A stretch of DNA of 64,000 nt, taken from a virus. The position numbers and the translations under genes were made by a program. The notes below the pieces were generated by a model that did not search any database, was not told the origin of the DNA, and saw nothing but the letters and a program-made list of their open reading frames with translations. The DNA is taken from positions 11,089 through 75,088 of IMG/VR virus record IMGVR_UViG_3300036846_000489. One strand, 5' to 3'. Below, piece by piece: positions 38,683-54,336 of the stretch (within the stretch, counting starts at the first letter, position 1; each line of letters starts with the position of its first letter).

Positions 38683-38833
38683 ACGCCCCGTGACGCCCCT
38701 GTGTGGCCAGAAAATGCTGTAGAACACTGGAAATATCGGATAATTCCGAAACTCTGCACGACAGAAGGCGCTGGACAAACCGAAAAAATGCGCCGAGAAT
38801 AATCAGGAAGGACACGCAACCAGGAGAACGAAC

Positions 38834-39367
38834 ATGAATAAGAAGATGCAGGTTCCGTGGGTAAACCAAGCTACGTTGACCAAGGCCGAAATGGAGAAGG
38901 TTCGCACGAATTGCGAACCGCGTCGGCCAACGATGTGCCTTAATACCAAGATGGTGAAGCTCGGTGCCGAGAAAAAGGGAAGGATCGTGCGTGGAGTAAG
39001 CACCTTGAATGGGTTCGTTCATTGGTCTGAACAAGAGAAAGACCTTACGTGGCATATGTGGCGCGCGAAATTGCTGCTTCCGTATGCGGAGAAGATCGAT
39101 GTCTACGATACGGACGGCAAGCAATTCACATTGCCAGCAAAGCCGCCGTTTGGTCCGGTGGAATACCGGGGGCCGTGTCGGCCACGCCGGGGCACGCCAG
39201 AGGGTGCCAGATTGGCCAGCAAGAAATTCCAGGAAAGGAAGGCGGCCGGATTGGCTCAGTCACGGAAGAAGTATCGCAATTTGCAAGCTCCCGAGGTGAT
39301 CAGGATGGGAGAGATGGAGCGGGAAAGGGAAAGCTTGCCAGAGGCCGAGCTAGTTCCTACCTTCTGA
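38834..39367 (+). CDS. Basic hypothetical protein
   Basis: SD AGGAG; possible promoter TGGACA-17-GAGAAT at 38772-38800. Confidence 0.6.
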   Translation: MNKKMQVPWVNQATLTKAEMEKVRTNCEPRRPTMCLNTKMVKLGAEKKGRIVRGVSTLNGFVHWSEQEKDLTWHMWRAKLLLPYAEKIDVYDTDGKQFTLPAKPPFGPVEYRGPCRPRRGTPEGARLASKKFQERKAAGLAQSRKKYRNLQAPEVIRMGEMERERESLPEAELVPTF

Positions 39368-39368
39368 T

Positions 39369-39600
39369 CCCCTTCGGGGTGTGGTGTCCTTCCACAGAGA
39401 GCCGGGCGATCCCGTCGCTCGGCTCTCACCACATCTGGCGCGAGAAGGGGCTTGACCGCGCAAGATGAGCGAAGGCATGCTTTCCCTATCGTCGCGGGAT
39501 CGCACACCTTGGAGCCAGCTATGTGACCTGCTAGCGCAGCATTATGAATGGATACGGAATTGGTGTGCTACCTGTTGGGCATCCAGCGACGCGGGTAGAA
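39369..39600 (+). ncRNA. Candidate structured RNA with anti-RBS bulge
   Basis: 82-nt hairpin 39369-39450 with G.U pairs on +, plus a domain sharing 20/21 nt with the early leader; lies in a 387-bp gap between convergent genes. Confidence 0.55.
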
Positions 39601-39754
39601 GCCGGGATAGTCTTTTCCTTCTTGCCACCACTCACGAGCAAGTTTCGGCGCTCTCAGTAGGGCCGCGTCGCGTTCTTCCCCTAGAGACAGCAGGTGGAAG
39701 TAGGCTCTGAATACCAAGGCACGATGTTCCCCCACCCGCATGTCCAGGTGGCGG

Positions 39755-41181
39755 TCAGTCTTTGGAAGCATAGGGCTGCACCTTTTGTCCGAGGAAATCG
39801 AGGTCAAGAACATTCAGGTTGTGGCGTTTGCACCAGACCTGAATACCCTGTTGCGTCCAGCCGACCTCAAGCCGTGACCACGTTTGCGGCGAGACGCCGG
39901 CGGGCATTTCCTTCAGGCACCTGGCACAGTGCATGAACTGGAAGATGCGGTTGGGATGGTCGGTCATATCGGACCCTCCGCATCACACCACACACACCGG
40001 CCGTCTACACCGTAGCGGTGCCTTCCGCTCGGCACACGGCAGGAAGTTTCTGATCTCACCGGCTTCGGTTCGACCAGATCGTCCACCTTGTGCTTGATGT
40101 ATGCCTGATCGTCGGAGAACGTGACCCACGAACGAACGTCGGGGAAGATACGCTGTCCGCATTCAGGGCAGAAGTTCGGCAGCCGGGGATTAACCCAGCA
40201 TAGCAGACAGATGCAGCATTCTGTGCGAATGAGCCGGAAGTGCGCTCTGGTCAGTGCCATTCCATTACTCCCGTCTGCTGCATCAGCCAGTGCTGGACGA
40301 CGACGTGGCGGTAGTGCCACATCGCCGGGTAGAAGGTGGTTGTGGTCATCAGAAACAGCTTCATTGTTTCAACCTCTGGCTGACATTGATCTTGGTGTCC
40401 GGACCAATACCGTCCTTTAGGGTTTCCGCGCAGTGTGCTTCGGTTTCGCCGGAGAAAATCATGACATCGACCGGCAGCCCAACTTCGCGACCGATGATGC
40501 GGATGAAGCTGTCACCCGGCTCTTTGCGGAACTGGTCCAGGTTGGCGAAACTCAGGCCGATCACCAGGATGCTTTTTCCGGTTCCGTCTCTCGCAATTGC
40601 TTTGATCATGAGGATTTCCTGTCCAGCTTGATGTCGTGGGTGCGGTGGCCGTATGATCTACCGGTTCTTATGGCATCGACCAGTTCCTCCATCAGTTCAA
40701 CAAACTCATGAGGGGGTGTGGTCGAGACCACGCGATTTTTCTTTTCTCCCGCCAGTCGATAGATCAGCAGCCAGTCACCGTCATCGCCTATTGCCTTGGC
40801 GAGAAACTGACCTACGGCATCAGCTATGAATTCATCCTCTTTGTCTTCGGTCATTTGGTGTCCTTTTCCTGTTTCCAGCGAAGTGCTGGTGCAGAGAGCC
40901 ACGCCCCACGGGACGCGCTCCCTGCATCAATGCTTCGTCTCCGCAGCGTCTTTTAAGGCGGTGAGTTTGAGGATTAATTTCACTAGCATCGTCAATAGGC
41001 TCGACCGAATTTCTGCGGTGTCCTTGTCGTCTTCCCCATAATGCCCAGCAACCCATATGGCGGTTAGTTCGGCGAGAACTGCGCCCTGTATGGCTGAGGA
41101 CTTGCCAGCCAGGATCGGCTTGATCTGACCGATCAGAGCGATTATTTCCTCTACGTCTTTCTTGGCGAAATCGGTCATCAA
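39755..41181 (-). CDS. Cluster of small early genes (39755-39967, ~39964-40260, 40361-40609, 40606-40854, 40927-41181), two with CxxC motifs
   Basis: Several ATGA-type overlaps; AAGGACACCAAATG start at 40854. Confidence 0.55.
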
Positions 41182-42221
41182 CGCACCTCGTAGTGGGAAC
41201 GGTTGGACTTGAAGCTCTTCCGCTGTTCCTCGGTAGCATTGACCAGTGTGTCCGCGATCCAGATCGACCGACCCGTGGCGTAGTTTCTCGGGTGTCCCAT
41301 GCGGATGTGGAACTGCGGACTTGCGTGGTGCCCGCCCAGACCTTCGCTCCGCTCCCGATGACCGCGTGCCAGAATAGCCGTGACATACGGCTCACTAAGC
41401 ACCCGGTCGTAGTGCGGGATCGGCGGCTTCCGGCTTTTCATCCTGGCACGTTGCAATTTCTCCGGTGGCCGAACTGTCTCCCGATCCACCCCGCGCGTGG
41501 CGAGGATCATCAGGCAACAGATAATCGGGTCACCGATATTGCAGCTTGCCGCCTCGTGGGCCGATTGTCCGTTGTTCTGCAAGGCACGGAATTCATCGTC
41601 GGCGACGAACCGCAGAATAGACGGTGCCACTTGGGAAATATGGTCAACGCCAAGTTCCGGTGGCGGCACCATGAACATGCCACGGTCACCGATTACCAGG
41701 AGTTGCTGGTAACCGAGCGTCAAGGGCTGAAGCTCGCAGACTTCGAAGGTCGTGTCGGAAGGACGATTGACCAGATAGACCGCTATCGCCTTGGTTTCTG
41801 GCAACACCACTGGCTGAGGGCCTGCGCCCTTCCAGATGAGGTTATGATCCCAAGTGTGGTAGCAAATCCACGGGTCGGAAAATGGGAAACCCAAGGCTCC
41901 CATATTCCACATCTTCCCGCCACGCTTCGCGCATTCCGAGATGACCAAGTTCGGCAAGTGACCGAAGTCGATGACCCTGCCGGCTGTCACCGCATCGCGG
42001 CACCGAAGGGAGATCAATTCAACCTCCCTCTGTGTCGAGGCGTATTCACGGCTCTCGGGAAGCAACCGCATGTTCGATGACTGGAAACCGGTGACGCGAA
42101 AATCGAGCACCGCGTCCCGCATCTGCGTGACGGTTGGTCTCCACTCCATGTCCAGCGACATAGTTAGCTCCTGCCCGAAGATCACCTGACCTTCGGGAGT
42201 TCTCATTAGTCTCGGTTCCAT
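41178..42221 (-). CDS. Hypothetical protein with C-terminal H.SP..H.R.GH.R motif
   Basis: Start at AAGGACACCAAATG (42221). Confidence 0.7.
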   Translation of the reverse strand: MEPRLMRTPEGQVIFGQELTMSLDMEWRPTVTQMRDAVLDFRVTGFQSSNMRLLPESREYASTQREVELISLRCRDAVTAGRVIDFGHLPNLVISECAKRGGKMWNMGALGFPFSDPWICYHTWDHNLIWKGAGPQPVVLPETKAIAVYLVNRPSDTTFEVCELQPLTLGYQQLLVIGDRGMFMVPPPELGVDHISQVAPSILRFVADDEFRALQNNGQSAHEAASCNIGDPIICCLMILATRGVDRETVRPPEKLQRARMKSRKPPIPHYDRVLSEPYVTAILARGHRERSEGLGGHHASPQFHIRMGHPRNYATGRSIWIADTLVNATEEQRKSFKSNRSHYEVR

Positions 42222-42291
42222 TTGGTGTCCTTCTCTGTGTCCCCTGGTCGGGGCGAGGACAGCACCGATGCCGGCGCTGCCTTCGTCCAGA

Positions 42292-42909
42292 TCAGCGAAT
42301 ATCAACCTTTTTCGCCGCGCCTTGCTCAAGAGCGGCTTTGAGTATCTGTTGGGCGGCATCGCGTTCTTCGAAGGTTGGCTCCCTTTCCGGCAGAACCTCG
42401 GCAAAACTTCCCATTATGAAACTCTGCGGGTCAGAGGTCTTTTCATCCTTTACCCCGGTGCATTTGCCTTTCGCGTTTCTTACGACTTCGGCTTGTGCCA
42501 CGGCGGTAAGGCGTTCACCGGTATCGTCGTTGCGCCATATGATCTGTGCTATGACGACTTCTTGGCGATCTTCCCGTTGGCTCGGCATGACCTCGGGATA
42601 TTCTGGGTCCGGTTCTCCTGGCTTGCTGCTCGCAATCCAGGCTTCGCCGATGAAGGCGACGGCGAACCCGTTGTCGGCTATACAGATGAGCCGGGCCATT
42701 TCCCGGTGTCCGCGTTTTTCCTTGTCGTCGTAGTTGTTCATTCCGCCGACACCTATCGGGGTAACTCTATGGGCGGCATGAACCACGAATAGCGGCATAA
42801 GGTGTCCTTCTTTGGTGATACACCGCTTGGCATATTCTAGATCAAGCCGAAGTTGTTTGGCATAATCGAACTTTCCCTTGGCGATGTTTGGTCCGGTTTT
42901 TCTCGGCAT
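42292..42909 (-). CDS. Hypothetical protein
   Basis: AAGGACACCAGATG start; EAW..PS..DR.EV motif. Confidence 0.7.
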   Translation of the reverse strand: MPRKTGPNIAKGKFDYAKQLRLDLEYAKRCITKEGHLMPLFVVHAAHRVTPIGVGGMNNYDDKEKRGHREMARLICIADNGFAVAFIGEAWIASSKPGEPDPEYPEVMPSQREDRQEVVIAQIIWRNDDTGERLTAVAQAEVVRNAKGKCTGVKDEKTSDPQSFIMGSFAEVLPEREPTFEERDAAQQILKAALEQGAAKKVDIR

Positions 42910-42982
42910 CTGGTGTCCTTCCTGTTCTCCCCTGGTCGGGGCGGTGACAGCCACGGAATATCCTTGGCTGCCCCCGTCTGGA

Positions 42983-43597
42983 TCAGGGCAAATACCTCTC
43001 AGCGACGTTCTCGCGCTTAATGAACTTCAGTAGGGCTGAATAGAATTCTTCCAGCCGTTGCTCGCCGTCCTGTTGCGACAGCCGTTGTTGCCAATGCTCC
43101 AGGAAATCCCAGGCATTGATCAACGCTCTTTCCCGGTCATAGAACATGAGCGGCCGCCAGCAGTAATCCAGCGACAATTCCGACCACCAGGAACAGGCTG
43201 AAGCCGCCCTGTCCTGGCCGTTCCCGATCCCGCCTTCTCTCGGTGATTTCGATGTTGACCACCACGCGCCGGGGCGGCCCGCCTGAAGGCGGGGGAGGAT
43301 CGTTGTGGAAGGAATTGCCGTCCAGTAAGTAGTCGAATGAGCCACGCTTCGGCTCCTTGTTCTTCAGCATATGCCCAACTCCTTCTTGGTCCGATCAACC
43401 AGATTTTCCCACTCCTTGCAGGCATCTTCCAGCCAGTTGATTGACTTGGCCGATCCCTGAAATTCGTAGGTATCGCGATCAAAGTGAAGACCGTTGAGCA
43501 CCTCTCTTGCCGCCGCTCTCATCGAACAGGCAACATCATACATCAATTGCTTGTTCGCTTTCATAGCGACGGCCTGATCTTCAGTTCTTTTCGGCAT
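42983..43597 (-). CDS. Three small early genes (42983-43147, 43137-43370 with TM helix, 43364-43597)
   Basis: Overlapping starts/stops; motif RBS at 43597. Confidence 0.55.
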
Positions 43598-43702
43598 GGG
43601 TTTGGTGTCCTTCTCTATTCCCCGACCGACTGGTCGAGGCGACAACAGCACCGCGCAAGGCGGGCTGTTCCCGTCAGGATCAGCACGACAGTCTGGCGAC
43701 CG

Positions 43703-44314
43703 TCAGTGGTATCTCCGGTGGTTGCCGTCGGCGGACCAATTTACTTCGTGCCAGTCCGCGACCGGCCCAGGCACGGTCAGAACCGGCACGGCCAATGCCC
43801 CGATGATCCCAGCGGACGCCCTGCCCTCTACACCGGCCAGGACGATCAGCGTGCCACGAGTAAGGAGCGTGGCCTTTTGGTTCGGGAACAGAACCGGCTC
43901 CTTGGTATTATCGAGGCGATCAAGGCTGCTTTCGAATTCGGCAATTCCCTGTTCCCCCAGGCGGGTTGCCAGGGTGACAAGGGCGCCGTGGCTGTCAGCT
44001 TGAAGAATGAAAGACGCCATGGTTGACCACAGTGCTGCCCGGTCTTCCAGGTCGGTATTATTTATCTCTGGGACCGGGTCAGACCACCGAAGCATGTCGC
44101 AGATCATTCCCCGGTTGGGGGAGGCAAATACCACATGCCGCCCATAGCAGGCCGGGAGTGCTAGTTTCCCAGCTTCCTCTGAAGCGATGGCATCGACAAC
44201 CTCCTGCAAGGTCGGAATACAGCGACGCAGTATTCGCTTCGTGCTCGGCTTTTGCGCGCGGCCTTTCACCACATCCTCTAAGGTCATGGTGGCGACGTGT
44301 TCTCCTAGTGTCAT
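43703..44314 (-). CDS. Hypothetical protein
   Basis: AAGGACACCAACCCATG start. Confidence 0.65.
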   Translation of the reverse strand: MTLGEHVATMTLEDVVKGRAQKPSTKRILRRCIPTLQEVVDAIASEEAGKLALPACYGRHVVFASPNRGMICDMLRWSDPVPEINNTDLEDRAALWSTMASFILQADSHGALVTLATRLGEQGIAEFESSLDRLDNTKEPVLFPNQKATLLTRGTLIVLAGVEGRASAGIIGALAVPVLTVPGPVADWHEVNWSADGNHRRYH

Positions 44315-44391
44315 GGGTTGGTGTCCTTCTCCGTCCTCGACTTCTGGTCGAGGCGGCGACAGCGCGGCTTCCCGTGCTGTCTCCGTCCAGA

Positions 44392-45549
44392 TCAGGGTCG
44401 TCTCCTGATGACGTCATAATCGTCGTGAACAACGAAGCCGCGTGAGGCGTCGCCGCGTTCATGCTCCGGTCGCCACCAGCGTTTGCCGCCACAGTCCGAA
44501 CAGACCCAATTATCCGGATCGTCCGGCCCAGCGTCCGGCCACGGCAGCCATTTCGGTGGACCGTGGTTCGGTTCGAAGTTGTGGACGCACCCGGCGATCC
44601 TGGAATAATCGCGGGCTTCCTTGTTGTGGCAGTAGTGACCACGAACTTCGTGCCGGCGACGCGGCACAGCGTCACCCGCCGGGGTGCCGATCAGCCTTAA
44701 GGTCGGCACCGGATCGATCTCTATGGTCACCGTGGTATGTGCCATGTAGGCCCGGAACTTGCCGCTGATGAAGCCAGGGGCATTCGGCAGAGAGTTCCGG
44801 TAGCTGGTCAGCGACGGCCGGTTGAGCATCAGCAGGATCGCGATGATCGTCCGAAAGTCGCCAATCGTGCCACGTGCCATGGACGCCATGCCGCCGTCAG
44901 CGGTCCATTTATGGTAGGATGGATGGGCCGGATTGAGCGGCGTCTGTTCCATGACGTTGAACTCTCGCAGCACGCGCCGTTCGTCGTTGGTCAGGTTGTC
45001 CCAGGTTGATCCCCACATAAGCATGTCGAGGCTCATCCGAGAGCACCCGCACAGACGGGCGAATTCCAACTGATCGTCTATCGGCCATTCGGTTCTTAGT
45101 CGATACTGCATTCCGGTCACCTGCGGGTCAGTGACCGGGTTGGCCACCGTGCCGCCGCAGATGGTATTGATCCGATTATGGTCGATCAGATACCCGACCG
45201 TGTGATCGGCACTGTCAAGTTCGCCATACCAGCCGGTATTTTCATACCGTCCTGGATCAGCGTCGCGTAGCACCTTCCAGTAAATCCACGAAGGCCACTC
45301 TATCCAGGTGACCTCGAAAGGTGGTCTGGCGAAGCCGTGTTCCCGCACCAGAAGTGAAGGAATATCACGCACGACCTGGGCAATACGCTCCGCGGCCCGC
45401 TCGTCAAAGACGAACTTATGGGCGGCACGCATGGAGCGTTGAAGCATGTCCATGGTTTTCGGATGGACGAACCGCTCCTTGGCCGAAAACTTATGAGCCA
45501 AAAAGCGGTCAGCCAGTATTGGCCCCCGCTTGGTAGGTGTTTTGGCCAT
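44392..45549 (-). CDS. Hypothetical protein with RRH.VRGH..W..H.RG C-terminus
   Basis: AAGGACACAACATG start; RPPF..WIE motif. Confidence 0.7.
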   Translation of the reverse strand: MAKTPTKRGPILADRFLAHKFSAKERFVHPKTMDMLQRSMRAAHKFVFDERAAERIAQVVRDIPSLLVREHGFARPPFEVTWIEWPSWIYWKVLRDADPGRYENTGWYGELDSADHTVGYLIDHNRINTICGGTVANPVTDPQVTGMQYRLRTEWPIDDQLEFARLCGCSRMSLDMLMWGSTWDNLTNDERRVLREFNVMEQTPLNPAHPSYHKWTADGGMASMARGTIGDFRTIIAILLMLNRPSLTSYRNSLPNAPGFISGKFRAYMAHTTVTIEIDPVPTLRLIGTPAGDAVPRRRHEVRGHYCHNKEARDYSRIAGCVHNFEPNHGPPKWLPWPDAGPDDPDNWVCSDCGGKRWWRPEHERGDASRGFVVHDDYDVIRRRP

Positions 45550-45624
45550 GTTGTGTCCTTCTGTTCTCCCCGAGCATGTCTGATCGAGGCGGAAACAGCC
45601 ATGCTGCTTCCGTCCGGATCAGGC

Positions 45625-45650
45625 AAAGAAAAGGGGAGCCGAAGCTCCCC
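45625..45650 (-). terminator. Intrinsic terminator inside the early array
   Basis: GGGGAGC-TTCG-GCTCCCC-TTTTCTTT on -. Confidence 0.8.
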
Positions 45651-45681
45651 ACAAAGTCTGGGTCGGATATTTTCTGCCGGT

Positions 45682-46320
45682 CTACGCCGACCGACGCCGC
45701 AACAGGGTCAGGCCGATCAGGCCCATCCCGAGGATCACAAGCGAGGCAGGCTCCGGCACGGCCGTCGCCGAAGCACTGATGTCACCCGCAAAGCTGGCAT
45801 TGAAGGCGCCAATTGTGCTGCCGTCCAAGGCAAGGGTGGGCAGCAGATTGGTGAACGCCAGATTGAACGAGCTTGGGGGCACCAACTCGTTGGCCGGAAT
45901 GACGTTGCTGGCCAACGTGAGGCTCTCCGGGGGGTTGTTGACATTGACTGTCAGACCCGGCCCACCATTTGCCCCAAAGGCGGCATCGGTGAACGTGCCA
46001 GAGAGGAAGTTACCCGTGCATCCGGCAGCACTTGAGATACAGAAGCTTCCCGAGTAATGCTGGATGATGTTGCCCGCTACCGTGATTGCCGCATCGATAG
46101 AATGCGCGGAGAGGGTCATCATGGCGCCAGGAATGGCACCGAGAATACCGCCGCCCAGCAAAGCTAGCTGGTTGGTGTAACTGATATTCGTCACGGTGCC
46201 ATTGTCGGTCGCTACCACGGTATTCGTCGTGGCCTCCTGAGCGAAAGTCGTAAGCAAGGCGGCTTCCGCTACTGTCGGCAAGGCCACGGCGATGGTGGAG
46301 GCAAGCAAAAGTGCCTTCAT
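45682..46320 (-). CDS. PEP-CTERM sorting-domain surface protein
   Basis: Signal peptide MKALLLAST..AEA; C-terminal VPEPASLVILGMGLIGLTLLRRRSA. Confidence 0.92.
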   Translation of the reverse strand: MKALLLASTIAVALPTVAEAALLTTFAQEATTNTVVATDNGTVTNISYTNQLALLGGGILGAIPGAMMTLSAHSIDAAITVAGNIIQHYSGSFCISSAAGCTGNFLSGTFTDAAFGANGGPGLTVNVNNPPESLTLASNVIPANELVPPSSFNLAFTNLLPTLALDGSTIGAFNASFAGDISASATAVPEPASLVILGMGLIGLTLLRRRSA

Positions 46321-46430
46321 CTGGTTTCCTTTCGGGTTGGTGTGAACACTCAGTCTCCCCGGCTTTGCTGGCCGAGGCCGGAACGCCCGCCACAGTTTCC
46401 TGTGGGGACGCTCCGGTCAAGGTCAGATTT

Positions 46431-46640
46431 CTACCGTCTCCGGTGGCTGGCATCTATAGGTTCGATGTCGGTCTCAACCTGACGGGGATCGCGGCCCTGT
46501 TGTATCCGCGATATCCTGGCGGGCAGGATGATATCCCGATTGCAGTCGTCGCAGCACCGGCCATGGTTGATCGGCTCCGCGTTGTTCCCGAACCGGGTGT
46601 ATGGCCGCCCGCAGATCGTGCAGGCTCCGTTCTCATCCAT
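46431..46640 (-). CDS. Zn-finger protein
   Basis: CTICG..GNNAEP..GRCCDDCN. Confidence 0.7.
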   Translation of the reverse strand: MDENGACTICGRPYTRFGNNAEPINHGRCCDDCNRDIILPARISRIQQGRDPRQVETDIEPIDASHRRR

Positions 46641-47136
46641 CCTTGTTCTCCTCTTCCTTGCGCGGCATTCCGGAAAGAAGCTGACCGTAGGTGTGGAGCA
46701 CCTCGGTCACCGGCTTGCCGTCTCGGAAGAACGTGATGGTTCCCGCCGCCTCTGAGGCGCGAGAGTTGCCCCAGGCGTCGAACTCGGCACGATCCATCCA
46801 AATGATGTTCCGACGCAGCCATTCGACGGTGACCACCGGATCGACCGTGTAGTAGCCTCCCGGCACGTCTTCGTCTTCGACCTCTTCGCCCACAACCACA
46901 CCGTTGCCGGCCATTGGCTGGTCGGTGCGGAATGCGCAGAAGAAAAAGTGCATGGTTGGTTTCAGCAAGCCTTCCTCGTCCACGAACATCACATCTCCAG
47001 ACGGGAACCGAAAGGCCGCTTCGATCCAGCCACCGATATAGTCACCGACGGTAGGAAGCTCGCCTTCGGCACTTTGTATGCGATATTCGACCTCACGGAT
47101 TTCCCGCTTCACGGCATCAATGAGAATTGCCTTCAT
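46633..47136 (-). CDS. DUF3846-like protein
   Basis: KAILID..IGGWIE..FVDEEGL..AGNGVVVG. Confidence 0.75.
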   Translation of the reverse strand: MKAILIDAVKREIREVEYRIQSAEGELPTVGDYIGGWIEAAFRFPSGDVMFVDEEGLLKPTMHFFFCAFRTDQPMAGNGVVVGEEVEDEDVPGGYYTVDPVVTVEWLRRNIIWMDRAEFDAWGNSRASEAAGTITFFRDGKPVTEVLHTYGQLLSGMPRKEEENKDG

Positions 47137-47220
47137 GGGTATTTGGTGTCCTTCCATTCAGTTTCCCCAGGCTGGCTGAGGCGAGGACAGCCACCGGCCT
47201 GAGCCGGCGCTGCCTTCGTC

Positions 47221-48357
47221 TTAGTCAGGGTCTATCGGCTCGTCGTGATCGTAGTTCGGATCGGTCAGAACCTCTGGCCGGAACGCGGCCAGCTTCTCCT
47301 TTTCGCATTTCCCGCACATGTATCCGAGAGGAATTCCCCTCGCATCCAGTCCGACCCACGGCCACTCGCCGCTGCCGCACGGGCATTCAGTCAGCATCGC
47401 CATCATGGTTCTCCGTCGTGGCCAACGGCTTTCTGGTCCGCCACGCCATCGACGGTGCGATGGCGTCCGGCGTATTCCCACTGGACCTGATGGAAGCGTT
47501 CGATATTCGCGATGTCACGAATATCCAACTTGAACCCCAGAGCCAAGTAGATTAGTTCCAAATCGCCTTGGTTGAGCCGGTCGAGGTTGGGCAAGGTGGC
47601 ATGAGGGATGCCACAGTGCTCAATGATCCACTCACGGATGACGCGGACCAGTTCGTATTTGTCTGGCCGCATCTTGGGAGGAAGCGACATCACGCTGCCT
47701 CCCGAGGGTCTTCAGTATTTATCGGCATTTGGTGTCCTTTCCAAAGTCCTCGGCGAACTGGCCGAGGCGGCGGTAGCCACGACAAGCGCAGCTACCCCCG
47801 TCCAGGTCAGATCAACTTGATCTCGACAGAAGTGACCGTGTAGGGGCCGTTGCAGCCAAGGCCGGGAGAGCCATACACGGCCTTCCCGTGGGTCAGTTCC
47901 CAGAAGCTTTTCTGCCGAGCCTGAAGGTAGACATCATCAAGCTCACCTTCGCAGATCGACTTTGTCTCCCAGGTCTGGCCCTTGGCAGCGGTGCCACGAA
48001 GGGTGCAGTTGTAGAGGCGGATCATGCCGGCCTCCTTATGAACTCTCGGCCCGGCCTGGACCGAATACCATGGATCAGATCGTCATGTTCTGTAGCGAAC
48101 CGAACCATGGCACGGCGAAGGTCCAGCATCACGTCGCAGATTTTCCGCAGGCGATCCACCTCTTTCTGATCCATCGGAAACTCCGACAACTGCGCCATGG
48201 CATCACAGAGGTTCGATACCATCGCGTTCATCCGGCCCAGGATCAGGTCTTTCTGATCGGTCTCTTTCTGGTATTTCGCCATCAACAAAGCCATGCTGGA
48301 ACGCGCTTCTCGCGCTTCAGCCTTCGCCTGTTGCAGCGGTGTAGGGTTTCGAGGCAT
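47221..48357 (-). CDS. Small early genes (47221-~47406 Zn-finger, 47403-47690, 47807-48025, 48022-48357)
   Basis: CPCGSG..DARGI..C..C; coupled starts; motif RBS at 48357. Confidence 0.6.
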
Positions 48358-48432
48358 TTGGTGTCCTTCCGTTCTCCAGCGCAAACGCTGGTGCAAAGAG
48401 CCACGGGCCATTGCTGACCCGCGCTCCTTGCA

Positions 48433-48903
48433 TCAAGGTTTGTTTGCTTCTCGCGCTATCCGCTCGTCTTCCTTCGTCGCATAATGAGGAAGTTCGCGCA
48501 GAGAAAGGCGGGGCCTTCCAGGCTTTTTTGGCCCAGGTGTTCTTTCCCGTTTCTTTTCCGGTGCTCGCTTTCCCAGCCTATGGGCTTTGGTAGGCGCAAA
48601 AAGTGTGAGTTTGCCGTAGACAAACCGTCCTTCGGTATCGAATTGACGAATGACTTCTGGCCAGTGGTTGACGTATCTCAGCCAGTGTTTTGCCCCTTCT
48701 TCTAGCACATAAGCTCGGTATTTATAGACTATCGCTGCCCGAGCGCCTTCGCGCATTAACGAACGAGCCCAAGGGCAGTCGCACGGATCGTTGGGGCAGG
48801 CGCCCTTGATATCAACAAGAAGAGCCACGACAGGTCTATTCTTCTTCGCGTCCACTATGGGTAGTCCTAGAAAGGCTGGATGGTTTCTCATCATGGATGC
48901 CAT
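48433..48903 (-). CDS. Basic hypothetical protein
   Basis: AAGGACACCAAATG start; DP..C..A..W.RY..FD motif. Confidence 0.65.
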   Translation of the reverse strand: MASMMRNHPAFLGLPIVDAKKNRPVVALLVDIKGACPNDPCDCPWARSLMREGARAAIVYKYRAYVLEEGAKHWLRYVNHWPEVIRQFDTEGRFVYGKLTLFAPTKAHRLGKRAPEKKRERTPGPKKPGRPRLSLRELPHYATKEDERIAREANKP

Positions 48904-48996
48904 TTGGTGTCCTTCTCTGTTTCCTGGTCCGGGTCTGGCCCAGGCGGAAACAGAAACGGCCCCCGAAAGGGCCGCTCTGCTACCGTCACGGTCAGA

Positions 48997-49263
48997 TCAT
49001 CCCCGCCGCGTGATGGTCACGTCGTATCCCTTGTCCACGATTTTCTGGATCAGAATTTCCAGGTCTTCGTGATCGTCGGGGAAAAGCATGTGCAACAGCT
49101 TTTTCACCTTGGCGGGACGCGGCTGGGCGTTGCCGTTCTCGATCTGCGACAGATAGCCATTGGACAATCCGGCACGTTCCGCGAGAGCGGTCTGAGACAA
49201 ACCGCGTTCCTCACGGGCTTGCCTGATCTTTTCGCCCAGGTCGGGGCTGTCGAAATTCACCAT
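48997..49263 (-). CDS. XRE-family HTH regulator
   Basis: LGEKIRQAREERGLSQTALAERAGLSNGYLSQIENG. Confidence 0.9.
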   Translation of the reverse strand: MVNFDSPDLGEKIRQAREERGLSQTALAERAGLSNGYLSQIENGNAQPRPAKVKKLLHMLFPDDHEDLEILIQKIVDKGYDVTITRRG

Positions 49264-49265
49264 GG

Positions 49266-49481
49266 TCAACCTCCTGTCTTCCACCATCGGCCGTGATCGC
49301 CCAGAGTGTATTTCTGGCCGACCCCGACGCCGAGGCCAAAGCCGAACAGAAGATGGCATCTCAGGCACATCATTGCCCACGGCCCCCGACGGGTTGCTCC
49401 ATCAACAAAGTCGGTGTTGAGGGAGCCGCGGCAGATGGCACAGGCAACAGGCTTGCTGCCTTGCCAGTAAAGCTTGGTCAT
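49266..49481 (-). CDS. Zn-finger protein
   Basis: C.IC..FVDG.T..GPWA.MC..C..G.GLG.G.GQKY. Confidence 0.7.
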   Translation of the reverse strand: MTKLYWQGSKPVACAICRGSLNTDFVDGATRRGPWAMMCLRCHLLFGFGLGVGVGQKYTLGDHGRWWKTGG

Positions 49482-49566
49482 TTGGTGTCCTTTCCGTTTC
49501 CCCCGATCCGCTGATCGAGGCGGTGGCAGCACCGCACAGCGGCGGGCTGCCCCCGTCCGGATCAGA

Positions 49567-50121
49567 TCATTCCATCCAGAAACAATTATACCGTTCGCGT
49601 TTCGCCATCCGGCACTTCAGGTTGTTCGCCTCGGCGATCCCTCGCAGATAGGCGAACCACTTCGCACTGGTCTGACCCGTGTGATCGCTGAGTTCCTTTC
49701 TCGAAACCCCCTGCGGCCGGCGAGATTGCTCGACTGCCCAATCGACGAACCCGGCGGGCAGTTTGGAGAGGCTGGGACCGCCCTTGATCTCCGGCCCCCG
49801 GTATTCCCCAGGCTCGACTTCTTCCGGCTTGGGAGAAGCCTCAGCGGCCTTCCTGGCAGCCTTCTTCGGCGCCGGCGCTTTCTTCGCGGTCGGTGCCGCC
49901 GCTTTCTTCTTCTTCGCAGCCTCGATACGCACGACGTTGCTTCCTTCATCGTCAGGAAGCGGACGATCAATCAGGCACCACTTGCCTTCAGCATTCTGTC
50001 CCGGCATGTGGTCGGCACCGAGCAGACGCAGACCGGAGCGCTTGAACTCCTTCTCCATGTCTTCCTTGCTGTCCCATGTCCGAGTTTGTGCCTCGACAAT
50101 GGTCATGCGTGTAGCGGCCAT
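49567..50121 (-). CDS. K/A-rich protein with DUF3489-like winged-helix domain
   Basis: AAKKKKAAAPTAKKAPAPKKAA linker; RPQGVSRKEL..TG. Confidence 0.6.
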   Translation of the reverse strand: MAATRMTIVEAQTRTWDSKEDMEKEFKRSGLRLLGADHMPGQNAEGKWCLIDRPLPDDEGSNVVRIEAAKKKKAAAPTAKKAPAPKKAARKAAEASPKPEEVEPGEYRGPEIKGGPSLSKLPAGFVDWAVEQSRRPQGVSRKELSDHTGQTSAKWFAYLRGIAEANNLKCRMAKRERYNCFWME

Positions 50122-50231
50122 GAATGTGTCCTTCTGTCCGTGGTGGAAATTCCCGGGACTGGCCCAGGCGGAAAAAGCGTGGGGCAGAGGTTTCCCCCTG
50201 CCCCGAGTTGTTTCCGTCACGGTCAGTCAGA

Positions 50232-50651
50232 TCAGGCGCGCTTGCGCACTGCGATCTTGGTCAGCTTGAACACCGGCTTGCCGCCAGAGACGCTGTAGGC
50301 GAGGCCGTTGCTCGTGGCCAACCGTTCTACCCATGGCCGCCACGCCACTTGGTTCTGTCCGGCTCGGCGCGCCAGCATGGCCCGCGTTACCCCTCCCGGA
50401 CTGGACGCCATCTCCAATACCATCTTCGCGAAATCCTTCGGCAGGATGGTATCGTTGACCGGCGGCATCGGCGTTCTGGCTTTTCTCGGCGCTCTGGCTT
50501 TTCTTTCTGCCCGAGGCTTCCGAGCCGACTTCTTCGCTTCCCGGCCCGGTTTCGGGCCTTGACGCCCCCCGGCCACTACCTTGAACTTCTCTGGCACCGC
50601 AGCCATGCGGGCTGAGGCGCTGTTCTTTTTCTTGATTACGGTCTTAGCCAT
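50232..50651 (-). CDS. Basic protein with DUF3489-like domain
   Basis: SSPGGVTRAML..AG..AWRP. Confidence 0.6.
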   Translation of the reverse strand: MAKTVIKKKNSASARMAAVPEKFKVVAGGRQGPKPGREAKKSARKPRAERKARAPRKARTPMPPVNDTILPKDFAKMVLEMASSPGGVTRAMLARRAGQNQVAWRPWVERLATSNGLAYSVSGGKPVFKLTKIAVRKRA

Positions 50652-50762
50652 TGTCTTAACCCTCTTGTTCGAAGACGCACGCCCGCAGTCGGGACGTGCC
50701 CCCGGCATACTGGCCGAGGCCGCAGCACCACCACGGTTTCCCGTGGGGTGCTCCGGTCCGGG

Positions 50763-52110
50763 TCAGGTATCGAAGTCGCGGCGATGCGCCGCTAGGATTT
50801 CCGCGATTTCCTCTGATGGGATCGGCTCGGCCCGATAGAGGATATCGATGTCCGGCACTTTGCTGATGATCATCCGGTAGCCGGGTGGCATTTTCTCCAG
50901 CAACATGAGAATGGTTGCTGCCACGTCGGCATTTTCATCGTTTACCATCCGTTTCTCCTTGCCCTAAAAAGCGAAAGCTGAGACCGTGATTGCCGTCGTT
51001 CTCCCCGACAAAGGATATCGCTGGATGCCCCTCGATCAACAGAAGGTCTTCGTAGAAGCTGTCCCATTCGTCGATCACGGTATCCATCTCTTCCCCTTCT
51101 TTCGGGTAGTTCTCGGCTATGTAGGCGTCGAGCGACATCTGCCGAGCCAATAATACGGCGTTGCCTTCTTCCTGGGCATTCACCCGGATCGCTTGCATGT
51201 AGCCTTCGTCTCCTATCAGGATGACGGTGTAGGGTTGCATTTGGTGTCCTTTCTCCCGAACCATTCTGGCCCAGGGAGAAACGTCGTCCGCAGACGACGC
51301 TTCCCTCACAGGTCAGGCTTCTTGGGGTTCGCCAAACAATTCCTTCCACATCTCGACCGTGGAGAACTGTTCGACCAGCTTCTTCGCCTCGTCCTCTGGC
51401 TGCGGCTCTATGCTCATGGTTTCGTAGCTCTTGACGAAGAGGTAGAACCGGGAGCTTGCGGTGCGATACAGGATCGCATGATCCCAGTGGAGATACTGGC
51501 CGAGGTCGCAGATCGGCTTTCCCTTATCCGTATCGTAGAGAACGCCGTCGATTATTTTCTGCATTTGGTGTCCGTCCTTCTGTCTCCCGTGCCAACCACT
51601 GGCCCAGGCGAGGACGGCCACGGTTCCCCGCGCCGCCTTCGTCTTGGTCAGATAAGTGGTTTCCATCCACCCCATGGGGGAAGCTCTTCGCCCCACCGTT
51701 TCTTCGGCTTCACCCTCTTGCTGCGTGCGGTCACCGCCCGATCATGGGCGGCTCCCAACGCGGCATCCGACATTGGTTTCTCTTTCGCCCGAGACCAGCT
51801 ATCGCTTGGCCCCACACGAAGCCGAACCTCTGGCACGCTTCCATAGGGCAGACCCTTCGCCTTGGATTTCCGGTTGGGATTTCCCTGACGAAGGAACTTC
51901 CTGCCCTTCGGATACGACCAGTTAATCCGAGACTTTTTCTTCACTCGGAATAGGCTCGAATATGACCGACCACTCGGGGTTTGATCCTTCCGGGTTGCAT
52001 CTGATTACGATCTGCTCTCCGGGAGAAAGGTCGTCGAGAAACTCGACCACCCGCTGAATGATGGCGAACCTTGGTTCTTCGTATTCGCGCTTGTTGGCGA
52101 CTTCTTCCAT
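50763..52110 (-). CDS. Small early genes (50763-50948, 50935-51240, 51313-51564, 51648-51773, 51922-52110)
   Basis: Motif RBS starts; KIIDG.LYDTDK..LYRT..FYL in 51313-51564; 50763 and 51922 share PG..EPIPSEE. Confidence 0.6.
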
Positions 52111-52792
52111 GTGTCTGTCCTTCCGTTCACACTCGTGCTCTGTCTTGGGGGCTTGCAACCCTCGGCAACCTTTCGGCTGACGGCGACATTCCGACCGACC
52201 CCCGTAGGGGCCGGGCGGTGAACAGAGGTTAAGGACACACCAAATTTTCGTATGAATACAACCGAGACTGTTTCGCCCTTCCCGCCCGCAAGATCGCCTC
52301 ACGGCTACCCTTACGACTTGTTCTCAGGCTAGGCTGTATCCACACGCCCGTATCCATTCACAATGCTGGCTTACACGCTGACGCCAGCAGACATCCGACA
52401 ACCCTGCTCACGCCCACCGGGCGTTTTTCTAGGTGTCGGTGTATCTACTGTGTCAGCCAGAGCGGGGCGCTCTTGGCAGGCTTACAAGGATCGCGCTCTC
52501 CCGGTATTCCCAACGCGCATTGATCCAGGGGGGTTTATGTTGCTGCCCATTTCGCCTTGCCAGTCTGATACCCTTTGCGACCTCTGTTGAGGTCGGGCCT
52601 TCTGGGTGGCACTATGGCGTGGCCGTGGTCCGCTCCTTGACACACTGTCGGCCAGCGTGTCACCTCGGACACCGTCCACTTGCACCTCGGAAGTTCTTTC
52701 CTCGCACGCTTGCAGCGCCCCATCTTCACCTGTCAAAGAACCCGCCGGGGTCGAAGGCGGGGCGGCCCGCCGCCCCTTTTCCTCCCGGCCAT
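52111..52792 (-). ncRNA. Long structured 5' leader / candidate large ncRNA
   Basis: No credible ORF between the strong promoter and first gene; many short hairpins, several with GNRA loops; boxA-like GTTCTTTGACA at 52731-52741. Confidence 0.6.
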
Positions 52793-52798
52793 TTTAAG

Positions 52799-52827
52799 AT
52801 CATAGCAAATTTTACCAGGTTTGTCAA
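52799..52827 (-). promoter_or_regulatory. Strong sigma70 early promoter
   Basis: TTGACA-17 bp-TATGAT. Confidence 0.88.
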
Positions 52828-52973
52828 GGTGGAGGATGCGCGGCGGTGGCGCCGTTCGCCGGTTTCCATCGTTGCTCATGTCCCAGGCGACACGCGACCC
52901 GCGAAACGATAACTTGCTTCGCCAATAGCTTTGCTTTATGCCGGGCGATGCTGTTCAATTGGGGAACGCCACC

Positions 52974-53639: not shown

Positions 53640-53812
53640 CCTTCGCATTCTGAGTGGCGCTGTATCCTCGCCGGCGCGATCATGATGCTGCTCTATTCGG
53701 CGATGGTATTCGCGGCTGGCTTCGCACTTGGTCTGACCCTGGCACAGTAGCGCCTCGTTCTACGACCCCGACCTGCTTACAGCTTCGGCCCCTTGCGGGG
53801 CCGTTGCCGTGA

Positions 53813-54167: not shown

Positions 54168-54293
54168 TCACAGTGCCATCGCGAACAGCGCTGCCGCGAG
54201 CGCGCAGATCGTGGCGGCAAGGAACATCGTGGTCCGCTTGCTGGTATCCGGCTGCGGCCGGCGCGGGAATTGATCGTCTTTTGAGGCGTTCAT
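54168..54293 (-). CDS. Small membrane protein
   Basis: AAGGACACCACGATG start; C-terminal TM helix. Confidence 0.55.
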   Translation of the reverse strand: MNASKDDQFPRRPQPDTSKRTTMFLAATICALAAALFAMAL

Positions 54294-54309
54294 CGTGGTG
54301 TCCTTCCAC

Positions 54310-54336
54310 AGAAAGAAAGAGGGGCCGAAGCCCCTC
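54310..54336 (-). terminator. Intrinsic terminator
   Basis: GAGGGGC-TTCG-GCCCCTC-TTTCTTTCT on -. Confidence 0.75.

What the first reader, a model, noticed from the sequence alone, without database searches (positions are those of the whole stretch)
39369..52827. Candidate integrated RNA control system governing a 13-kb early-gene array
Seen: a strong promoter (52799-52827), boxA-like site and 680-nt structured leader feed about 30 small minus-strand genes. These are punctuated by 16-17 homologous RNA hairpins, most followed by a standardised RBS AAGGACAC(C)A. At the far end, a convergent + strand non-coding region displays the complement of that RBS. Inference: one antiterminated transcript is cut into units with uniform 5' ends, and these can be silenced together by one antisense RNA. 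Partial known analogues: T7 early RNase III sites, cluster K mycobacteriophage SAS/ESAS, P1 c4 antisense. I know of no description combining them.
Basis: partly seen in the sequence, partly recalled or inferred. Interest (0 to 1): 0.93.

Follow-up and report, generated by a model that had tools for sequence, protein, structure and literature searches.

The report
Standardised RNA linkers joining phage gene cassettes
A 75-kb soil phage strings about 30 small early genes behind one strong promoter and joins them with 16 copies of one folded RNA linker (stop codon, hairpins, fixed ribosome site), which is also where cassettes are lost and reordered; it is a new variant of known phage cassette systems, and the proposed antisense 'master switch' is unproven.

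Summary
The window is most of a complete 75,088-bp myovirus-like phage genome from soil. One near-consensus promoter, a boxA-like word and a ~680-nt leader precede ~31 small minus-strand genes. These are joined by 14 'type A' and 2 'type B' linkers, and 17 starts carry the motif GAAGGACACCAAATG.

New here:
- The linker folds in the mRNA strand, with strong covariation.
- Its 5' arm holds the upstream gene's stop codon.
- Its 3' arm can pair either with that arm or with a downstream G-rich box, giving two exclusive states.
- Two relatives share the linkers with a permuted gene order, and contigs from two soil samples show cassette deletions whose joints lie in the linkers.
- The only conserved islands in otherwise unalignable leaders are the boxA-like word and a 27-nt inverted copy of the ribosome-site module. 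This copy pairs with the first gene's ribosome site.

The far-end 'anti-RBS' is a start-less 18th copy of the motif. It is kept in both relatives, but no evidence shows a plus-strand RNA. RNase III cutting and global antisense silencing remain untested.

Closest known: Cluster K SAS/ESAS and T4 PeSLs. This scan has noted similar junction modules on other phage DNA.

The parts
52799..52827 (-). Strong sigma-70-type promoter of the array (TTGACA, 17 nt, TG-TATGAT)
   Evidence: 11 of 12 positions, the only such site in 38400-56000; sequence
52756..52777 (-). GC-rich hairpin at the start of the leader, just upstream of the boxA-like word
   Evidence: 7 G-C pairs
52725..52740 (-). boxA-like word (TTCTTTGACAGGTGAA)
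   Evidence: single match to YTCTTTRACA in the 75-kb genome, and one at the same place in L001; 15-nt island, 14 of 15 identical, in otherwise unalignable leaders
52111..52790 (-). About 680-nt untranslated leader
   Evidence: no conserved ORF; the sequence is not alignable to the L001 leader apart from two islands
52219..52244 (-). Inverted copy of the ribosome-site module in the leader (anti-RBS, UUUGGUGUGUCCUUAACCUCUGUUCA)
   Evidence: 26 of 27 identical to L001 3302-3328, E 2e-6; pairs with the first gene's ribosome site in the MFE of both phages; duplex mean -22 kcal/mol with motif-type starts against -14 for other starts
52108..52135 (-). First gene's ribosome-site module (GAACGGAAGGACAGACACAUG)
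39568..52110 (-). Array of about 31 small genes, nearly all without family matches (1 DUF3846, 1 HTH-like, 1 PEP-CTERM protein)
51562..51651 (-). Type-A linker (hairpin 51599-51651, then motif and ATG)
   Evidence: 63 bits
51238..51316 (-). Type-A linker
   Evidence: 45 bits
50649..50766 (-). Type-A linker without the standard motif (extra hairpin, SD GAGGG)
   Evidence: 58 bits
50119..50226 (-). Type-A linker whose upper stem is also an intrinsic-terminator-like hairpin (50181-50204)
   Evidence: 51 bits
49479..49565 (-). Type-A linker
   Evidence: 64 bits
48901..48995 (-). Type-A linker
   Evidence: 62 bits; joint of population deletions
48355..48435 (-). Type-B linker (stop, long hairpin 48392-48432, second hairpin 48376-48391, motif and ATG)
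   Evidence: joint of population deletions
47726..47810 (-). Type-A linker. Its motif drives a 12-codon mini-ORF whose stop overlaps the next start (TGATG)
   Evidence: 59 bits
47134..47228 (-). Type-A linker
   Evidence: 65 bits
46318..46426 (-). Type-A linker before the PEP-CTERM gene
   Evidence: 54 bits
45547..45650 (-). Terminator-like hairpin (45633-45650) followed by a type-A linker (45580-45622) and the motif. This block follows the PEP-CTERM gene in the window and in L001, although the next gene differs
   Evidence: 55 bits
44312..44395 (-). Type-A linker
   Evidence: 61 bits
43595..43683 (-). Type-A linker
   Evidence: 63 bits; joint
42907..42986 (-). Type-A linker
   Evidence: 62 bits
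42219..42295 (-). Type-A linker
   Evidence: 62 bits
40852..40929 (-). Type-B linker
39381..39396 (-). Start-less ('orphan') copy of the motif at the far end of the array.
   Evidence: start-less copies at the same place in L001 (16896) and L135 (9836)
39397..39427 (.). Distal hairpin next to the orphan motif
   Evidence: folds on either strand
39451..39469 (.). 19-nt block (CTCATCTTGCGCGGTCAAG on the minus strand) conserved in all three phages; function unknown
   Evidence: 13 consecutive invariant columns
54290..54336 (-). Terminator-like hairpin plus a motif copy before a small membrane-protein gene in the upstream operon. It shares an 18-nt identity with the orphan copy

Best explanation
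The region is the hyperplastic early-gene array of a complete ~75-kb myovirus-like soil phage. About 31 small, mostly orphan genes form about 17 cassettes without promoters of their own. They are read from one strong host-type promoter through a long leader that carries a boxA-like word.

The cassettes are joined by one repeated 75-110-nt intercistronic linker. Its parts, in order, are:
1. The stop codon of the upstream gene, set in the 5' base of a hairpin.
2. A covarying hairpin.
3. A 3' arm that pairs either with the stop-codon arm (one long hairpin) or with a G-rich box just downstream (two tandem hairpins, the more stable state).
4. A short spacer.
5. A fixed initiation module, GAAGGACACCAAAUG.

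Shown:
- The linker is a structure of the mRNA strand.
- The stop codon is part of it.
- The same linkers are where cassettes are deleted and reordered in relatives and in natural populations.

Inferred:
- The linker insulates each cassette and gives it a uniform start.
- A ribosome ending the upstream gene frees the 3' arm, which sets the fold in front of the next start.
- The roughly 90 bp of shared sequence lets the phage's ERF-type annealing protein shuffle cassettes.
- A conserved inverted copy of the initiation module in the leader masks the first gene's ribosome site in cis.
For: Phage identity. The genome is complete, and Pfam finds portal, sheath, tail lysozyme, ERF and primase-helicase.

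Long hairpin. Ten of 17 pairs show changes on both sides, in 53 cells. The covariation score is 0.415 against 0.19 in shuffles, with 0 of 500 shuffles as high and collapse when the partner is slid. Wobble intermediates are almost all G.U on the mRNA strand (18 against 2).

Second hairpin. It is present in all 25 units. Native pairing gives -11.4 kcal/mol against -8.6 for swapped partners (permutation p below 0.0002). The sense strand folds better than the antisense (-11.4 against -8.8). It also explains the two conserved A.C mismatches of the long hairpin.

Two states. The two-hairpin state is more stable in 24 of 28 units, by 4 kcal/mol on average.

Stop codon. The upstream ORF ends exactly at the arm's TGA in 15 of 25 units and within 8 nt in 7 more.

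Distribution. The covariance model finds units only in the array of the window and in two relatives. The mRNA strand scores about 16-35 bits higher than the opposite strand, which is partly by construction. Three units found only by the model keep the fold.

Initiation module. Late genes and genes inside cassettes use AAGGAGG-type sites, so the module is not simply the best Shine-Dalgarno sequence.

Recombination. The PEP-CTERM gene and the 385-aa gene are in swapped order in L001 and L135, and other genes are permuted too. DNA similarity blocks start or end in linkers. Contigs from two soil runs carry deletions of single cassettes with joints in linkers or modules: 48328>48901, 48374>48931, 51254>51624, 51935>52117 and 43370>43627.

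Leader. The only conserved islands are the 27-nt inverted module and the boxA-like word. The inverted module pairs with the first gene's ribosome site in both phages.
Against: - There are no RNA data, so transcription limits, processing, and the folds in vivo are all inferred.
- The 28 units come from only three related phages. Part of the covariation signal could therefore be shared descent, which is the tool's own caveat.
- In type-B linkers the two hairpins sit side by side and do not compete, so the two-state feature is not universal.
- The predicted folds leave the ribosome site unpaired in both states, so how the switch would change translation is unclear.
- Some joints have short sides (30-45 nt) and were laid at 85% likeness, where metagenome joints can come from repeats.
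- Long identity of the initiation module could be kept by gene conversion between linkers, without any regulatory role.
Confidence: 0.6

Rival explanations
1. First reader's model. A single antiterminated transcript is cut at each hairpin (as host RNase III does at T7 early sites) into units with uniform 5' ends. A plus-strand RNA from 39369-39600 that displays the complement of the ribosome-site motif then silences all units together.
For: - The long-hairpin state has 17-25 pairs with a 2x2 internal loop and single mismatches, a shape that RNase III substrates can have.
- The array has one promoter, a boxA-like word and internal terminator-like hairpins.
- A start-less motif copy is kept at the far end of the array in both relatives. 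In L001 it lies beyond a strong sense-strand terminator, so it may not be part of the sense transcript.
Against: - The more stable state splits the long hairpin into two short ones of 11-17 and 4-9 pairs, which are poor RNase III substrates.
- No promoter-like site for a plus-strand RNA lies upstream of the motif complement. In the window the complement begins 16 nt after a plus-strand gene's stop, behind only a 4-pair hairpin.
- Flanks of the orphan copy differ between the window and the relatives.
- A conserved anti-RBS already exists in the sense leader.
Confidence: 0.1
2. The leader-borne inverted module is a trans-acting (or long-range cis-acting) anti-RBS for the whole set of motif-type starts. 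Released from or attached to the leader, it pairs with all 17 initiation modules and throttles the early regulon.
For: - It is the best-conserved stretch of the leader, with 26 of 27 positions identical between phages whose leaders are otherwise unalignable.
- Predicted duplexes with motif-type starts average -22 kcal/mol. Other starts in the array average -14, and the genome background averages -11.6 with a 1st percentile of -20.9.
- The first genes of the two phages are unrelated, so the target is the module and not a particular gene.
Against: - In both phages the MFE already uses it in a local helix with the first gene's ribosome site, 85-125 nt away.
- One leader per transcript faces 17 targets.
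- The complementarity follows by construction from its being an inverted copy.
- No informative compensatory change was found between the two phages.
Confidence: 0.15
3. The motif and/or the conserved base of the hairpin are binding sites for a phage or host protein. This could be an RNA-binding translational repressor or endonuclease, in the manner of T4 RegA/RegB, or a DNA-binding 'stoperator'-type repressor as in Cluster A mycobacteriophages.
For: - Conserved positions (CACCAAA) lie beyond what 16S pairing needs.
- Start-less copies are conserved: the inverted one in the leader and the orphan at the far end.
- The lower stem is far more conserved than the upper stem.
- Pope et al. proposed factor binding for SAS/ESAS (PMC3203893).
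Against: - No candidate protein was identified. Ten array and neighbouring proteins gave no PHROG match with a known function, and in Pfam only DUF3846 matched.
- The motif keeps a fixed 5-10 nt distance to start codons, as expected of a ribosome site.
- The arms covary, which a double-stranded DNA site would not need.
Confidence: 0.12
4. The linkers have no regulatory role of their own. They are selfish or neutral repeats kept alike by recombination and gene conversion, and their only effect is to promote cassette shuffling.
For: - Cassette loss and reordering occur at the linkers.
- Stop codons sit in more than one frame at the 5' end of several units, as in elements that must end any upstream ORF.
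- More distant relatives with the same 385-aa gene use quite different junctions.
Against: - Upper stems differ in sequence between units yet stay paired. Three-way covariation of arm, 3' arm and box is kept.
- Strand asymmetry points to the mRNA.
- The orthologous 385-aa genes in three phages all end in the arm's TGA.
Confidence: 0.1
5. The hairpins are single-strand DNA recombination sites recognised by a dedicated recombinase (integron attC-like, or IS200/IS605/REP-like).
For: - The region is an array of promoter-less cassettes in one orientation, each followed by an imperfect hairpin repeat.
- Conserved unpaired bases occur in the stem.
- attC-type sites have been reported in phage genomes (PMC9892861, seen, not read).
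Against: - The complete genome has no tyrosine recombinase and no Y1 transposase.
- The arms lack the GTTRRRY/RYYYAAC cores of attC.
- The conserved mismatches are explained by the alternative RNA pairing.
Confidence: 0.03

Closest known systems
[quoted passage not shown] 2011, PMC3203893; function still unverified in 2025, PMC12699233)
   Same: - A short asymmetric motif containing a Shine-Dalgarno core sits a few bases before 11-19 start codons.
- It lies in one orientation and only in the non-structural part of the genome.
- Conserved positions go beyond 16S pairing.
- About half or more of the copies are preceded by imperfect inverted repeats.
- The upstream stop codon sometimes lies inside the repeat.
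- A lone copy occurs in the opposite orientation, not tied to a start.
   Different: - The motif sequence, the phage and presumably the host phylum are unrelated (no DNA match).
- The arms here covary and form RNA hairpins. Pope et al. found no support for pairing and favoured DNA-binding proteins.
- The spacer between arms is 14-40 nt and itself a stem, not 4-13 nt.
- There is a second, competing hairpin.
- The stop codon is a regular part of the element.
- The inverted copy sits in the operon's leader and pairs with the first ribosome site.
PeSLs (promoter-early stem-loops) of T4-type phages (Arbiol et al. 2010, PMC2839356; Comeau et al. 2014, PMC4122927)
   Same: Repeated roughly 60-100-bp regulatory modules lie between small orphan early genes in a hyperplastic region. 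Insertions, deletions and replacements between relatives end in the modules.
   Different: - PeSLs each carry a strong promoter and a terminator hairpin. Here there is one promoter for the whole array, and most hairpins have no U tract.
- The conserved core here is a ribosome-site module plus a stop-codon-bearing hairpin.
- Mini-circles were not looked for.
RNase III processing sites between T7 early genes
   Same: Irregular hairpins with internal loops lie between genes of one long early transcript made by the host polymerase.
   Different: No cleavage data exist. The predicted equilibrium fold is two shorter hairpins. The hairpin base contains the stop codon and is linked to a fixed ribosome site.
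Integron gene cassettes with attC sites
   Same: Promoter-less cassettes lie in one orientation behind a common promoter. Each ORF is followed by an imperfect hairpin repeat, and the repeat travels with the upstream gene in at least one case.
   Different: There is no integrase, no attC core sequences and no attI. The structure signal is on the mRNA strand.
Processive antitermination signals with boxA (lambda nut, rrn operons)
   Same: A boxA-like word lies about 50 nt downstream of the promoter, beside a hairpin and ahead of internal terminators.
   Different: The similarity to the consensus rests on my memory of it. No N-like or Q-like protein was identified, and no function was tested.

Membership tests
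Cluster K SAS/ESAS | Many copies of one short asymmetric motif 3-7 bp upstream of start codons, in one orientation | tested here: met
   17 copies lie 5-10 nt before minus-strand starts. The count is 21 in the window against 1.6 expected.
Cluster K SAS/ESAS | Motif restricted to the non-structural part of the genome | tested here: met
   All start-associated copies lie between 40854 and 54292. None precedes a structural gene.
Cluster K SAS/ESAS | Motif sequence GGGATAGGAGCCC (at most 2 mismatches), as defined in PMC3203893 | tested here: not met
   The motif here is GAAGGACACCAAATG.
Cluster K SAS/ESAS | ESAS: 17-bp imperfect inverted repeats, spacer mostly 4-13 bp, departures not compensatory | tested here: not met
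   The arms are about 20 nt with a 14-40-nt spacer, and 10 of 17 pairs show compensatory changes.
Cluster K SAS/ESAS | Genome belongs to Cluster K actinobacteriophages | tested here: not met
   No megablast match to 50,697 phage records. The gene set is myovirus-like.
PeSL cassettes of T4-type phages | A strong sigma-70 early promoter in each module | tested here: not met
   One 11-of-12 promoter serves the array. Internal minus-strand hits score 9 of 12 and are no more frequent than in shuffles.
PeSL cassettes of T4-type phages | Stem-loop acting as a transcription terminator in each module | tested here: not met
   Only 2 of 16 junctions have a hairpin followed by a U tract. Function was not tested.
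PeSL cassettes of T4-type phages | Gene gain, loss and replacement between relatives ends in the modules | tested here: met
   Gene order is permuted in L001 and L135. Similarity blocks end at linkers. Deletion joints lie in linkers in contigs of two soil runs.
T7-type RNase III processing sites | Intercistronic hairpin of about two helical turns with an internal loop in a polycistronic early RNA | tested here: inconclusive
   Met by the long-hairpin state. The more stable state is two shorter hairpins.
T7-type RNase III processing sites | Cleavage by RNase III giving defined ends | not testable with these tools
   No RNA run holds the sequence.
Integron attC sites | Integron integrase (tyrosine recombinase) with the array | tested here: not met
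   PF00589 has no match in the complete genome, and the controls were positive.
Integron attC sites | Inverse core RYYYAAC and core GTTRRRY at the ends of the hairpin | tested here: not met
   The ends are CTGAYC and GRYCAG in all units.
boxA-dependent processive antitermination | boxA word close to the promoter, upstream of terminators, conserved in relatives | tested here: met
   There is a single genome-wide match, about 50 nt downstream of the -10 hexamer. A 15-nt island is shared with L001, and terminators lie downstream.
boxA-dependent processive antitermination | Match to the boxA consensus and dependence on Nus factors or a phage N-like protein | not tested
   No reference boxA sequence was fetched, so the likeness is from memory. 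No N-like protein was identified.
Antisense-RNA control of ribosome sites (P1 c4 type) | A separate small RNA is transcribed that carries the complement of the target ribosome sites | not testable with these tools
   The complement exists at 39384-39396 on the plus strand and at 52219-52244 in the sense leader. No promoter was found for a plus-strand RNA, and there are no RNA data.

The most novel reading that the evidence does not exclude
The linkers are ribosome-sensing two-state RNA switches repeated 14 or more times in one transcript. A ribosome terminating on the stop codon in the 5' arm flips the fold in front of the next cassette, so expression, or RNA survival, is passed down the array cassette by cassette. 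The conserved inverted module in the leader, and possibly the start-less copy at the far end, acts on all 17 standard ribosome sites. This would make a self-contained RNA regulon that any newly captured gene joins simply by recombining into a linker.
Probability: 0.15. Interest if true: 0.85.

Novelty: new variant of a known kind. Interest (0 to 1): 0.55.

Why it matters
Start-associated repeats in phage early regions have been known since 2011 (Cluster K SAS/ESAS), and their function is still open (PMC12699233). This phage offers a cleaner case for three reasons.
- The repeat is plainly an mRNA structure, with compensatory changes.
- It includes the upstream stop codon.
- It has two exclusive folds.

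These features turn a vague 'regulatory motif' into a mechanism that can be tested with simple two-reporter constructs.

The array also shows, in one system, that the same module is both an expression adaptor and the joint at which orphan genes are swapped. This helps explain how phages plug newly acquired genes into a working expression frame. As a natural, promoter-less 'standard junction' it may also interest people who design synthetic operons.

Tried and rejected
- Rfam at gathering thresholds and tRNA scans of the window found nothing.
- Megablast of the array against 50,697 phage records gave no match.
- An exact scan of viral contigs for the 15-nt motif gave 52 single hits that look like chance.
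- A hairpin-pattern scan of metagenome and genome collections gave 109 and 82 hits. Nearly all are chance in GC-rich DNA. After filtering, only L135, the L001 contig again (as L054), and nothing else carried several units. L055 and L225 were false.
Contexts of the 107 homologues of the 385-aa protein could therefore be fetched only through a viral-contig scan.
- The 27 more distant loci searched, out of the 32 new loci from that scan, lack the linker. They could not test co-variation between the motif and the leader's inverted copy.
- No RNA holder was listed for the stretch. Expression, ends and strands could not be examined.
- I first read the conserved A.C mismatches and the lower summed energy of the plus strand (-475 against -420 kcal/mol) as a sign that the antisense strand folds. 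I rejected this after finding that the mismatched bases belong to the second, sense-strand hairpin and that wobble intermediates are G.U on the sense strand.
- Consensus folds of the distal region on either strand, from three sequences, were inconclusive.
- The conserved 19-nt distal block was examined as a promoter on both strands. The best reading (TTGACC, 18 nt, CATGCT on the plus strand) has a poor -10 hexamer and would point away from the motif complement.
- A small ORF after the orphan motif was rejected: there is no start codon, and the frames are not conserved between phages.
- Pfam and PHROGs on 20 array and neighbouring proteins gave only DUF3846 and one unnamed PHROG.

Full report
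**What the DNA is.** The window is bases 11089-75088 of a single 75,088-bp contig with overlapping ends. IMG/VR classes it as having direct terminal repeats, and CheckV scores it 100% complete. Pfam finds a portal, a DUF3383 sheath, a tail lysozyme, tail fibres with an endosialidase-chaperone domain, an ERF-family annealing protein and a primase-helicase. It is therefore a myovirus-like phage. The sequence comes from soil metagenomes. No tRNA or Rfam family is present, and no catalogued phage is similar at the DNA level.

**Check of the observation.**
- The promoter at 52827-52799 (minus strand) matches the sigma-70 consensus at 11 of 12 positions, with a TG extension. It is the only strong site in 17.6 kb.
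- About 680 nt separate it from the first ATG at 52110.
- About 31 minus-strand ORFs follow, down to 39568. Nearly all lack family matches.
- AAGGACAC occurs 21 times in the window against 1.6 expected. With near-matches, 17 copies lie 5-10 nt before minus-strand start codons between 52110 and 40854. One more precedes a gene at 54292, and one at 39391-39384 has no start codon.
- Alignment of the intergenic stretches gives 14 'type A' and 2 'type B' homologous linkers.

**The motif is not just a good Shine-Dalgarno sequence.** Late genes, and the genes that overlap their neighbour inside a cassette, use AAGGAGG-type sites. The linker motif reads AAGGAcaccaaa. Its conserved 3' half cannot be explained by pairing to a canonical 16S tail.

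**Anatomy of the type-A linker.** The consensus on the mRNA strand is CUGAYC-nn-GACGG-n-GGCAGC, a variable upper stem and loop, GCUGYn-n-CCGCC-UC-GRYCAG, then 6-12 nt, a G-rich box, 5-30 nt, and GAAGGACACCAAAUG.

1. *The long hairpin is supported by covariation.*
   - Ten of 17 pairs show changes on both sides (53 cells). The score is 0.415 against 0.19 in shuffles, with 0 of 500 as high, and it collapses when the partner is slid.
   - For example, position 5 with its partner is C-G 15 times and U-A 10 times, with no mismatch.
2. *The TGA in the 5' arm is the real stop codon of the upstream ORF.* This holds in 15 of 25 units, and the stop lies within 8 nt in 7 more. The orthologous 385-aa genes of three phages all end there.
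3. *The 3' arm has a second partner.*
   - CCUCGRYC pairs with a downstream GRYCGRGG box in all 25 units, with matching changes (GAUC/GAUC, GGC/GCC, GAC/GUC, CAG/CUG).
   - Native pairings are stronger than swapped ones (-11.4 against -8.6 kcal/mol, permutation p below 0.0002). The sense strand folds better than the antisense.

This second hairpin excludes the base of the long one. It explains the two conserved A.C 'mismatches' of the long hairpin, which had at first suggested folding of the opposite strand. With the stop-codon arm blocked, as under a terminating ribosome, the two-hairpin state is more stable than the long hairpin in 24 of 28 units, by 4 kcal/mol on average. Wobble intermediates at variable pairs are G.U on the mRNA strand 18 times and A.C twice.

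In type-B linkers the stop codon again sits at the 5' base of a long hairpin. The second hairpin lies beside it rather than competing with it.

**Relatives.** A protein scan and a hairpin-pattern scan found two relatives: a 75,005-bp viral contig (L001/L054) and an 11-kb metagenome contig (L135).
- Both carry the same linkers and the motif. A covariance model built from 25 units finds them only in the window's array and in these two relatives. It picked up five further copies, and the three strongest keep the long-hairpin fold.
- Twenty-seven more distant loci that share the 385-aa gene lack the linker. They use other junctions: their own start-associated words (CAAGGAGTGAC 13 times in L273, CACAGGAGAC 8 times in L277) or a repeated promoter plus a GCACACAC leader (L249, L256).
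- Standardised junctions are thus common in this wider group, while this particular linker belongs to a narrow clade.

**The linkers are recombination joints.**
- Gene order differs. The PEP-CTERM gene precedes the 385-aa gene in the window and follows it in L001 and L135. The DUF3846, HTH and 69-aa genes are also permuted.
- DNA similarity blocks begin at the motif (47153) or consist of a linker that now precedes a different gene (45650-45553 matches L001 11969-12071; 40899-40841 matches L001 12779-12837).
- Contigs of two soil runs, laid on the array, show single-cassette deletions with both ends in linkers or motifs:
  - 48328>48901 (side 239 nt) and 48374>48931 remove the 156-aa gene.
  - 51254>51624 removes the 83-aa gene.
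  - 51935>52117 removes the first gene.
  - 43370>43627 removes the 77-aa gene and supplies the next gene with its own motif.
  - Two further genes are replaced by diverged sequence of like length.
- Some of these joints have short sides and were laid at 85% likeness, so they are not all equally secure.
- The complete genome has no tyrosine recombinase and no Y1 transposase. Homology-driven exchange, perhaps by the ERF protein, is therefore the likely route, rather than attC-like or IS200-like chemistry.

**Leader.** The leaders of the window and L001 cannot be aligned. Local comparison finds two islands only.
- The first is a 15-nt boxA-like stretch. Its decamer YTCTTTRACA occurs once in the 75-kb genome, about 50 nt after the -10 hexamer, and once in L001 at the same place.
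- The second is a 27-nt element at 52244-52219, with 26 of 27 positions identical. It is an inverted copy of the ribosome-site module.
- In the MFE of both phages this element pairs with the first gene's ribosome site, 85-125 nt downstream, although the first genes are unrelated.
- Its predicted duplexes with the 17 motif-type starts average -22 kcal/mol, against -14 for other starts in the array and -11.6 for genome background. That follows from its being an inverted copy.
- I read it as a cis-acting mask of the first ribosome site. A trans role on all sites is possible but unsupported.
- Two intrinsic-terminator-like hairpins lie inside the array (50204-50181 and 45650-45633), and several lie in L001's array. 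This fits a need for antitermination. The boxA likeness itself rests on my memory of the consensus and was not tested.

**The far end.**
- Both relatives also have a start-less copy at the end of their arrays. Each sits next to a hairpin and about 90 nt after a block conserved in all three phages. The arrangement is therefore not an accident of one genome.
- In L001 a strong sense terminator lies between the last gene and this copy.
- Against the antisense reading:
  - I found no plus-strand promoter upstream of the complement.
  - The flanks differ between the window and the relatives.
  - Folds are equally good on both strands.
  - There are no RNA data.
- In L001 and L135 the copy runs straight into a unit-like 'CUGACGG...' hairpin, like a junction with no gene in it. 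Its role stays open.

**Verdict.** The best-supported reading is a promoter-less cassette array whose standard intercistronic linker is both an mRNA element and the joint for cassette shuffling. As an mRNA element it has a stop-codon-bearing two-state fold followed by a fixed initiation module.

The closest known systems are Cluster K SAS/ESAS (PMC3203893; function still unverified, PMC12699233) and T4-type PeSLs (PMC2839356). Defining features of both families were tested and not met, so this is a new variant of a known kind, not a member of either. Earlier notes of this scan describe comparable standard junctions on other phage DNA, which lowers the surprise. The two-state, stop-codon-bearing fold with three-way covariation is what is particular here.

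Noticed in passing
window 47690-47739 (minus strand): One standard motif drives only a 12-codon mini-ORF (ATG at 47728). Its stop overlaps the start of the next 95-aa gene (TGATG), and that gene has its own GGGAGG site. This looks like a leader peptide coupled to the real gene.
   Followed up: partly
window 42795-42809 (minus strand): A perfect motif copy with an in-frame ATG lies 38 codons inside the 205-aa gene 42909-42292. It could give a shorter isoform, or it could be a relic junction.
   Followed up: no
window 39451-39469: A 19-nt block (CTCATCTTGCGCGGTCAAG on the minus strand) is conserved in all three related phages between the last array gene and the start-less motif. It is not a convincing promoter on either strand.
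   Followed up: partly
window 55200-55440: A very GC-rich non-coding stretch with short tandem repeats (unit about 11-24 nt, CGGCCCCTGGCG-like) lies between two minus-strand gene groups, just upstream of an AT-rich promoter-like stretch near 55100-55200. It may be an origin or a binding array.
   Followed up: partly
window 45682-46320 (minus strand): A cassette encodes a secreted protein with a PEP-CTERM sorting tail. Orthologues (47-50% identity) sit in L001 and L135, but on the other side of the 385-aa gene.
   Followed up: partly
L001 3680-4800: The first cassettes of the relative L001 use a different repeated junction: an intrinsic terminator (CCCCG..CGCCGAG..CGGGGATTTCGTGTG, three copies), then TTGAACAAAGGAC and ATG. 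They include two paralogous 66-aa genes.
   Followed up: no
L273, L277, L249, L256 (viral contigs sharing the 385-aa gene): More distant relatives have their own standard start words (CAAGGAGTGAC 13 times; CACAGGAGAC 8 times plus one start-less copy on the other strand) or a repeated promoter plus a GCACACAC leader. Junction standardisation therefore recurs with lineage-specific sequences.
   Followed up: partly
window 44392-45549 (minus strand): The 385-aa array protein has more than 100 homologues in metagenomes, mostly on 70-88-kb contigs. It has invariant Cys/His positions near the C-terminus (zinc-ribbon-like) and no Pfam or PHROG family.
   Followed up: partly
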